From Eledone cirrhosa (taxonomy: Eukaryota), in NCBI GenBank assembly GCA_964016885.1, contig OZ024748.1, positions 49,104,001 to 49,168,000 of the forward strand: a stretch of DNA of 64,000 bases. Reading direction: 5' to 3'. The translations under genes were made by a program, and so were the position numbers. Positions 10,210 to 10,258 of this stretch are shown here, in pieces (within the stretch, counting starts at the first letter, position 1; every line of letters begins with the position of its first letter). The notes beneath the pieces were generated by a model. It was given only the letters and a program-made list of their open reading frames with translations. It was not told the origin of the DNA and searched no databases.

Positions 10210-10258
10210 GAGTGATCAACAGCTGTTTCTCGCTCGTTAGCGTTTATCAAGACCACTC
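10210..10258 (-). ncRNA. Type I hammerhead ribozyme variant (U3-A8 core)
   Basis: GAGUGGUC-UUGAUAA-A-CGCU(AACG)AGCG-A-GAAACAGCUGUU^GAUCACUC; all three helices pair. Confidence 0.7.

What the first reader, a model, noticed from the sequence alone, without database searches (positions are those of the whole stretch)
10210..10258. Solitary intronic hammerhead with a compensatory U3-A8 core, sense to furry
Seen on the minus strand: helix I GAGUGGUC/GAUCACUC, core UUGAUAA in place of CUGAUGA, helix II CGCU/AGCG, and GAAA followed by palindromic helix III ACAGCUGU with a GUU site. Established knowledge: positions 3 and 8 form a Watson-Crick tertiary pair, so the double change C3U plus G8A preserves it. 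The motif lies ~150 nt downstream of a fry donor, between TA-repeat tracts, and is unrelated in sequence to the 480-bp unit. It therefore represents a second ribozyme-bearing family.
Basis: partly seen in the sequence, partly recalled or inferred. Interest (0 to 1): 0.7.

Follow-up and report, generated by a model that had tools for sequence, protein, structure and literature searches.

The report
Truncated retrozyme copy in furry intron
This self-cutting-RNA motif is a clipped, ageing copy of a widespread 320-letter repeat of a known kind (a retrozyme) that likely landed in this intron by chance, carried by Penelope-type jumping genes, and its unusual core base pair is a published variant shared by many of its sister copies.

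Summary
The motif is real: a type I hammerhead at 10258-10210 (minus strand) with a U3-A8 core, sense in a furry intron. It is alone in the window but not in the genome. It is the 5' end of a ~170-nt truncated copy of a dispersed, ORF-less, circularly permuted 315-322-nt repeat (over 2,200 search candidates; tandem copies to 2.3 units): a non-LTR retrozyme. U3-A8 is inherited (40 of 42 close copies, none C3-G8), while a younger sister subfamily carries C3-G8, so the pair covaries within the lineage. The window copy lost the 5' arm of an 18-bp helix I extension and has GUU where relatives have GUC. Family copies end at two fixed sites ~35 nt apart, often in (TA)n and as head-to-head pairs (23 of 26 classifiable pairs use one site each): the Penelope 'tail' footprint. 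Neptune-like elements in the same genome carry a U3-A8 hammerhead and the same 3'-end signature, so they are the likely carriers. U3-A8, retrozymes and their Penelope link are published, and this scan noted similar elements before, in this genome and others. Cleavage and expression are untested. Ordinary locus; modest family-level interest.

The parts
10410..10584 (-). furry-like coding exon upstream of the insertion (donor GT at 10409-10408)
   Evidence: open frame and AG/GT ends; contig of run X4 matches 10409-10585 with loose ends on both sides; neighbouring exons match a furry-family protein
10260..10271 (.). short (TA)n tract at the truncated 5' end of the copy; replaces the 5' arm of the family's long helix I
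10087..10259 (-). 5'-truncated retrozyme copy, about 0.55 of a 315-322-nt unit
   Evidence: BLAST to family copies at 83-93% identity
10210..10258 (-). type I hammerhead motif: 8-bp helix I, U3-A8 core, A10.1.A11.1 mismatch, 4-bp helix II, palindromic helix III, GUU triplet; predicted cut 10218/10217
   Evidence: family alignment
10192..10209 (-). orphan 3' arm of the 18-bp distal helix I; its partner strand is missing in this copy
   Evidence: paired in fuller copies
10087..10191 (-). unit body, ending at the family's first fixed 3' end (site A, about 132-141 nt after the cut site)
10050..10103 (.). (TA)n tract into which the 3' end runs; inferred insertion target
   Evidence: a TA run follows 54 of 101 family 3' ends

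Best explanation
This is a 5'-truncated copy of a dispersed, protein-free 315-322-nt hammerhead repeat (a non-LTR retrozyme) that was likely pasted into a TA microsatellite of a furry intron by the enzymes of a Neptune-like Penelope retrotransposon and likely has no role for the gene. Inferred cycle: a multimeric transcript self-cleaves at each hammerhead, probably as a dimer or with protein help, into monomers that can be ligated to circles. The Penelope protein nicks both strands of (TA)n and starts reverse transcription at two fixed internal sites about 35 nt apart. It copies a variable length around the unit and straight through the ribozyme junction, giving truncated, longer-than-unit and head-to-head insertions. 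Shown: repeat anatomy, circular permutation, fixed 3' ends, inherited U3-A8, covariation. Inferred: cleavage, circles, the carrier, the neutrality of this copy.
For: Family: 2204, 2724 and 2658 first-look candidates in three DNA searches, 40 scored each; 78 exact matches to a 31-nt degenerate core pattern, 0 for the reversed control. Flanks of the first 30 loci share no longer element. Ribozyme-to-ribozyme spacing 315, 317, 318, 322 nt in tandem copies; insertions up to 2.28 units. Two natural monomers fold as circles at z -5.5 and -4.9 against 60 shuffles each. Structure on 43 of 57 copies: 91.5% of cells paired against 40-48% when slid; 19 two-sided changes against 9.5+/-2.7, 0 of 500 shuffles as high; one helix I pair G-C to A-U in 6 copies. 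Cores: 60 U3-A8, 34 C3-G8, 5 other among 99 parsed of 127 copies. 3' ends: 90 of 101 fragments at site A or B, 5' ends scattered; 23 of 26 head-to-head pairs with both ends classed are A+B (35 pairs in all). This matches the two RT start sites, the 30-40-bp tail and both-strand priming shown in vitro for a Penelope element (PMC11167929) and the inverted truncated copies and (TA)n bias of PLEs (PMC8557442). 9 of 20 GIY-YIG loci fetched carry a U3-A8 hammerhead core with U10.1/11.1 mismatch-type closing, short helix II and a short helix III in their 3' UTR; 7 of these 9 end in TTCAT(AT)n 183-209 nt later, like site A. The window copy differs from the column majority at 7 of 168 columns (family median 5.7%), i.e. 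ordinary decay.
Against: No cleavage, circle or RNA end was observed; only contigs were available and no run is on record as RNA. The retrozyme and the Neptune-like 3' UTR share no alignable sequence beyond ribozyme layout and end signature, only 20 of 150 scored GIY-YIG matches were examined and their RT was not checked, so another Penelope family could be the carrier. The helix I of the Neptune-like motif is only 2-4 bp and was missed by my stricter scan. Covariation counts are inflated by shared descent (tool caveat). In vitro, ribozyme cleavage was not needed for Penelope insertion (PMC11167929), so longer-than-unit copies could come from uncut multimers instead of circles. The window copy keeps all core nucleotides and is slightly closer to the majority than the median copy, so residual activity is not excluded.
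Confidence: 0.85

Rival explanations
1. The repeat is the detached pseudo-LTR of an autonomous Penelope-like element, and all copies are 5'-truncated products of that element rather than of an independent retrozyme.
For: Same insertion footprint as PLEs; solitary U3-A8 hammerheads in Schistosoma were attributed to truncated PLEs (PMC4209133); one copy sits just after a Neptune-like 3' end (L065).
Against: Units join head-to-tail into a closed 315-322-nt permutation with no ORF; no shared flank in 30 loci; the L065 copy follows the element's own (TA)n end and none of the other 19 GIY-YIG loci holds the repeat.
Confidence: 0.08
2. The intronic copy has been kept because it cuts furry pre-mRNA and tunes its splicing or level.
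For: Sense orientation, 151 nt from a donor; core intact; helix I retains 8 bp; GUU and a palindromic helix III also occur as subfamily states elsewhere in the family, so they need not be inactivating.
Against: Divergence is ordinary; the distal helix I arm is lost; a lone copy with a 2-bp helix III has no partner in cis, and such motifs cleave poorly as monomers (PMC4209133, PMC7229834); about 43% of retrozyme copies in Xenopus lie in introns anyway (bioRxiv 10.64898/2026.07.22.740005). Predicted helix I probability in context is 0.03, but intact copies also score 0-0.17, so that test does not discriminate.
Confidence: 0.05
3. The motif is a chance match to a loose hammerhead descriptor.
For: No Rfam hit; unremarkable folding of the isolated motif; mismatch at 10.1-11.1.
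Against: Core, three helices and spacing are kept across subfamilies whose helix sequences and 3-8 pair differ.
Confidence: 0.02

Closest known systems
Metazoan non-LTR retrozymes (Cervera and de la Pena 2020, PMC7229834; Li et al. 2026, bioRxiv 10.64898/2026.07.22.740005)
   Same: Non-coding 170-400-nt unit with one type I hammerhead, low GC (35-38%), self-paired predicted circle, monomer and tandem copies, co-occurrence with PLEs; an axolotl family also has a mismatch at the base of helix II.
   Different: U3-A8 and C3-G8 subfamilies in one lineage; helix I extended to 8+18 bp; mostly dispersed truncated and head-to-head copies with two fixed 3' ends; expression as circles not shown here.
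Hammerheads of Penelope-like elements, incl. the U3-A8 variant of Schistosoma Cercyon (Cervera and de la Pena 2014, PMC4209133)
   Same: U3-A8 core (about 1,300 hits there, mostly single motifs), short or palindromic helix III, opposite-strand pairs 100-700 bp apart.
   Different: Here helix II is 4 bp and helix I long, there is a 10.1.11.1 mismatch instead of an extra base plus G10.1-C11.1, and the unit has no ORF.
Poseidon element of Anolis (Frangieh et al. 2024, PMC11167929)
   Same: Two internal RT start sites bounding a 30-40-nt tail downstream of the hammerhead, AT-rich targets, both strands primed.
   Different: That is an autonomous element tested in vitro; here the footprint is on a non-coding passenger and the likely carrier is Neptune-like.
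Natural core variants of hammerheads (Perreault et al. 2011, PMC3088659)
   Same: Natural U3-A8 covariation and U10.1-U11.1 mismatch reported; U3-A8 ribozymes cited as active in vitro.
   Different: The A10.1.A11.1 and C10.1.A11.1 mismatches seen here were not in the passages I read.

Membership tests
Type I hammerhead ribozyme | Core N3-UGA-N-N8-A ... GAAA ... UH with a Watson-Crick 3-8 pair | tested here: met
   U3-A8 in 40 of 42 close copies
Type I hammerhead ribozyme | Helices I, II, III supported by comparison | tested here: met
   (91.5% paired, two-sided changes above all 500 shuffles); helix sequences differ between subfamilies
Type I hammerhead ribozyme | R10.1-Y11.1 closing pair of helix II | tested here: not met
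   A.A in the window; A10.1 51 of 57, A11.1 54 of 57. Not obligatory: U.U mismatches occur naturally (PMC3088659, PMC7229834)
Type I hammerhead ribozyme | Self-cleavage 3' of H17 | not testable with these tools
   needs an in vitro assay or RNA-end data
Non-LTR retrozyme | Non-coding unit of about 170-400 nt with one type I hammerhead | tested here: met
   spacing 315-322 nt
Non-LTR retrozyme | Tandem or circularly permuted genomic copies, no LTR or shared coding flank | tested here: met
   longest seen 2.28 units
Non-LTR retrozyme | Highly self-paired monomer | tested here: met
   z -5.5 and -4.9 for two natural monomers
Non-LTR retrozyme | Expressed as linear and circular monomer RNA | not testable with these tools
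   no run on record as RNA; contigs only
Penelope-type insertion footprint | Two 3' ends bounding a 30-40-bp tail, inverted 5'-truncated arm, AT-rich target | tested here: met
   90 of 101 ends at sites A or B; 35 head-to-head pairs in 58 loci; TA run after 54 of 101 ends
pLTR of an autonomous PLE | Repeat flanks an RT/GIY-YIG ORF | tested here: not met
   limited to 30 flanks and 20 GIY-YIG loci
Domesticated intronic hammerhead | Conserved at the orthologous intron across species | not testable with these tools
   no related genomes held (header)

The most novel reading that the evidence does not exclude
The family is a genomic record of how Penelope machinery copies a ribozyme-made RNA circle: a Neptune-like protein primes both target strands at once, one at each of two fixed sites, and reads through the religated cut site; and the whole-pair swap between U3-A8 (older subfamilies and the Neptune-like carrier) and C3-G8 (the youngest subfamily) shows that catalysis is under selection in vivo, although it was dispensable for insertion in vitro.
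Probability: 0.4. Interest if true: 0.45.

Novelty: new member of a known kind. Interest (0 to 1): 0.22.

Why it matters
The locus itself is very likely neutral repeat debris. The family has modest value: what hammerheads do for Penelope elements is open (PMC8557442, PMC11167929), and here a non-coding passenger shows the two-site, two-strand footprint with counts, a candidate carrier in the same genome, and natural U3-A8 and C3-G8 subfamilies that can be compared in one assay. I found no description of this family in print with these searches: hammerhead+retrozyme+octopus, hammerhead+cephalopod+Penelope, retrozyme or U3-A8; the library lacks most subscription journals and repeat databases, and the host's identity is my untested guess.

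Tried and rejected
Rfam scans gave no hammerhead hit (only 5S rRNA in the window and TA-repeat artefacts). Folding of the isolated motif was unremarkable. Base-pair probabilities in context did not separate the window copy from intact copies, which also prefer a rod-like inactive fold. A Pfam search for the furry middle domain missed the window's short exons and found a paralog on another contig; tblastn with that paralog established the exons. 3 of 4 exons had no Pfam hit. No RNA holder listed. Run X4 holds a contig that skips the introns around the exon and scattered family pieces, but its type is not on record and contig depth cannot show expression; not used as evidence on expression. The very high summed depth over the unit body in X1 first suggested another element; it turned out to be the other subfamilies; depth is no copy number. 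The link between the retrozyme and the neighbouring SINE-like repeat in 3 of 30 loci has different junctions and was read as independent insertion into TA tracts. ARAGORN found no tRNA. A look-up of earlier findings by sequence found nothing. The tree includes the core columns and leaves out 28 unparsed copies; a body-only tree still clusters C3-G8 (3 changes against 27.8 shuffled) but is poorly resolved. Lunse et al. 2017 on dimeric PLE hammerheads is recalled, not read.

Full report
Observation. One feature was missed: positions 10.1 and 11.1 are an A.A mismatch. The motif alone is not statistically striking (z -1.47; no Rfam hit). It lies 151 nt downstream of the donor of a 175-nt exon (10584-10410) with an open frame and AG/GT ends, which a contig of run X4 matches exactly to its ends. 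Minus-strand exons across the window match a 2989-aa furry-family protein and one hits MOR2-PAG1_N at E 4e-17 (1 of 4 scanned). It has no real homology to the 480-bp array.

What it belongs to. A genome search with 10104-10420 returned 2204 candidates; the 40 scored are 88-93% identical over the stretch from the ribozyme to the TA tract. In these copies the sequence continues on both sides and closes on itself: the downstream end runs into the upstream end. Tandem copies give ribozyme spacings of 315, 317, 318 and 322 nt and insertions reach 2.28 units. No longer shared flank was seen in 30 loci. Two natural monomers fold as circles far better than shuffles (z -5.5, -4.9). The window holds about 0.55 unit, cut off inside helix I, so it keeps the 3' arm of an 18-bp helix extension but not its partner. 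On 43 of the 57 aligned copies (14 left out: truncated 5' arms, duplicates, large indels), 91.5% of cells of the proposed structure pair, against 40-48% for slid controls, with 19 two-sided changes against 9.5 expected, subject to the tool's caveat on shared descent. This is the anatomy of a non-LTR retrozyme (PMC7229834, parts 2-3 of 6 read).

The U3-A8 core. With positions 3 and 8 left free, 42 close copies matched: 40 U3/A8, one U3/U8, one U3/G8, none with C3. So the pair is inherited. A sister subfamily, first seen in L065 and L110 and then fetched on purpose, has C3-G8, a U10.1.U11.1 mismatch and its own helix I. Among 127 ribozyme-bearing copies, 99 cores could be parsed: 60 U3-A8, 34 C3-G8, 5 other; these proportions reflect my queries, not abundance. 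The C3-G8 copies form one supported clade (100/98), with a U3-A8 copy (L095) as its sister (98/99), and are younger (median 2.7% from the column majority against 6.3%). With only a midpoint root, this suggests but does not show a change from U3-A8 to C3-G8. U3-A8 is published as a natural variant (PMC3088659, passages) and as about 1,300 mostly single motifs in Schistosoma PLEs (PMC4209133, parts 1-2 of 4).

State of the window copy. Among 71 copies with the same helix I, 3 have the palindromic helix III (the others carry a 1- or 2-nt loop insert) and 7 have GUU, 62 GUC, 2 GUG; C17 sits in a CpG, so GUU is most simply a CpG transition (inference). Both states are also fixed in other subfamilies, so neither proves inactivity. 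The copy differs from the column majority at 7 of 168 columns plus indels, against a family median of 5.7%: ordinary decay, no sign of special conservation. In context, upstream intron sequence is predicted to sequester the 5' strand of helix I (P 0.03), but intact copies also prefer an inactive rod, so this does not discriminate.

How it moves. In 58 loci (29 found by a body word, 29 of the C3-G8 subfamily), 90 of 101 fragments end at one of two sites about 35 nt apart, 5' ends are scattered, 30 fragments exceed one unit, a TA run follows 54 ends, and 35 head-to-head pairs occur; of the 26 with both ends classed, 23 use one site each. The window copy ends at the first site. Two internal RT start sites bounding a 30-40-nt tail, AT-rich targets and priming of both strands were shown in vitro for a Poseidon element (PMC11167929, parts 1-2 of 4); inverted truncated copies, tails and (TA)n bias are described for PLEs (PMC8557442, passages). 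The genome holds many GIY-YIG remnants (10597 candidates, 150 scored). Most of the 20 fetched carry the CX4CX2C motif of the Neptune/Nematis type. Nine have a U3-A8 hammerhead core with a short helix II and short helix III in the 3' UTR, and seven of these end in TTCAT(AT)n, several followed by a tail of about 34 nt (part's output was cut). That matches the retrozyme's first end. No alignable homology links the two beyond this, and RT domains were not examined, so the carrier is inferred.

Comparison and verdict. Retrozymes as non-autonomous PLE derivatives, with many monomer and intronic copies, are described (bioRxiv 10.64898/2026.07.22.740005, parts 1-2 of 5 and passages; molluscs not covered in its main text). 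No supplements of any paper were opened; their alignments may include related motifs. Earlier agents of this scan reported U3-A8 retrozymes with Penelope footprints on other DNA of this genome and in other genomes; I saw those notes after reaching this reading. The finding is a new member of a known kind. Cleavage, circles and expression are untested (searches give no usable RNA evidence). Interest 0.22.

Noticed in passing
L061 (G000:C22, about 18,013,000-18,022,000, +): An uninterrupted 2989-codon frame encodes a furry paralog, 40-96% identical to exons of the window's gene: an intronless, probably retroposed copy with its frame intact.
   Followed up: partly
window 9830-10045 (+): A very abundant repeat with a tRNA-like 5' part by eye (SINE-like; ARAGORN and Rfam found nothing) lies tail-to-tail with the retrozyme copy across the TA tract; pieces of it adjoin the family in L004 and L023 too.
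   Followed up: partly
window 1-5571: The 480-bp array is head-to-head (switch near 3790) with 10 identical C3-G8 hammerheads; these also have a mismatch (U.U) at 10.1-11.1, a 4-bp helix II and a palindromic helix III, the same layout as the U3-A8 family and the Neptune-like motif.
   Followed up: partly
L064-L067, L069, L071, L075, L080, L083, about 450-700 nt after the GIY-YIG match: Neptune-like PLE 3' UTRs carry a U3-A8 hammerhead core with a very short helix I; an intron or the tandem junction might supply a longer one.
   Followed up: partly
L063, L084, L087, L097, L103: A subfamily has a duplicated helix III segment that makes a longer, nearly perfect palindrome; across the family helix III comes in at least four lengths.
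   Followed up: no
L015, L004, L031 (ribozyme region): In the window's subfamily the 2-nt helix III loop makes that strand complementary to the start of the core, giving a predicted rod-like inactive fold, a possible off-switch for the monomer circle.
   Followed up: no
window 29668-29786 (-): A 5S rRNA-like copy (94 bits) in a furry intron.
   Followed up: no
window 15786-17715, 38390-43454, 45488-46212: Long intronic minisatellites of 21, 47 and 43 bp.
   Followed up: no
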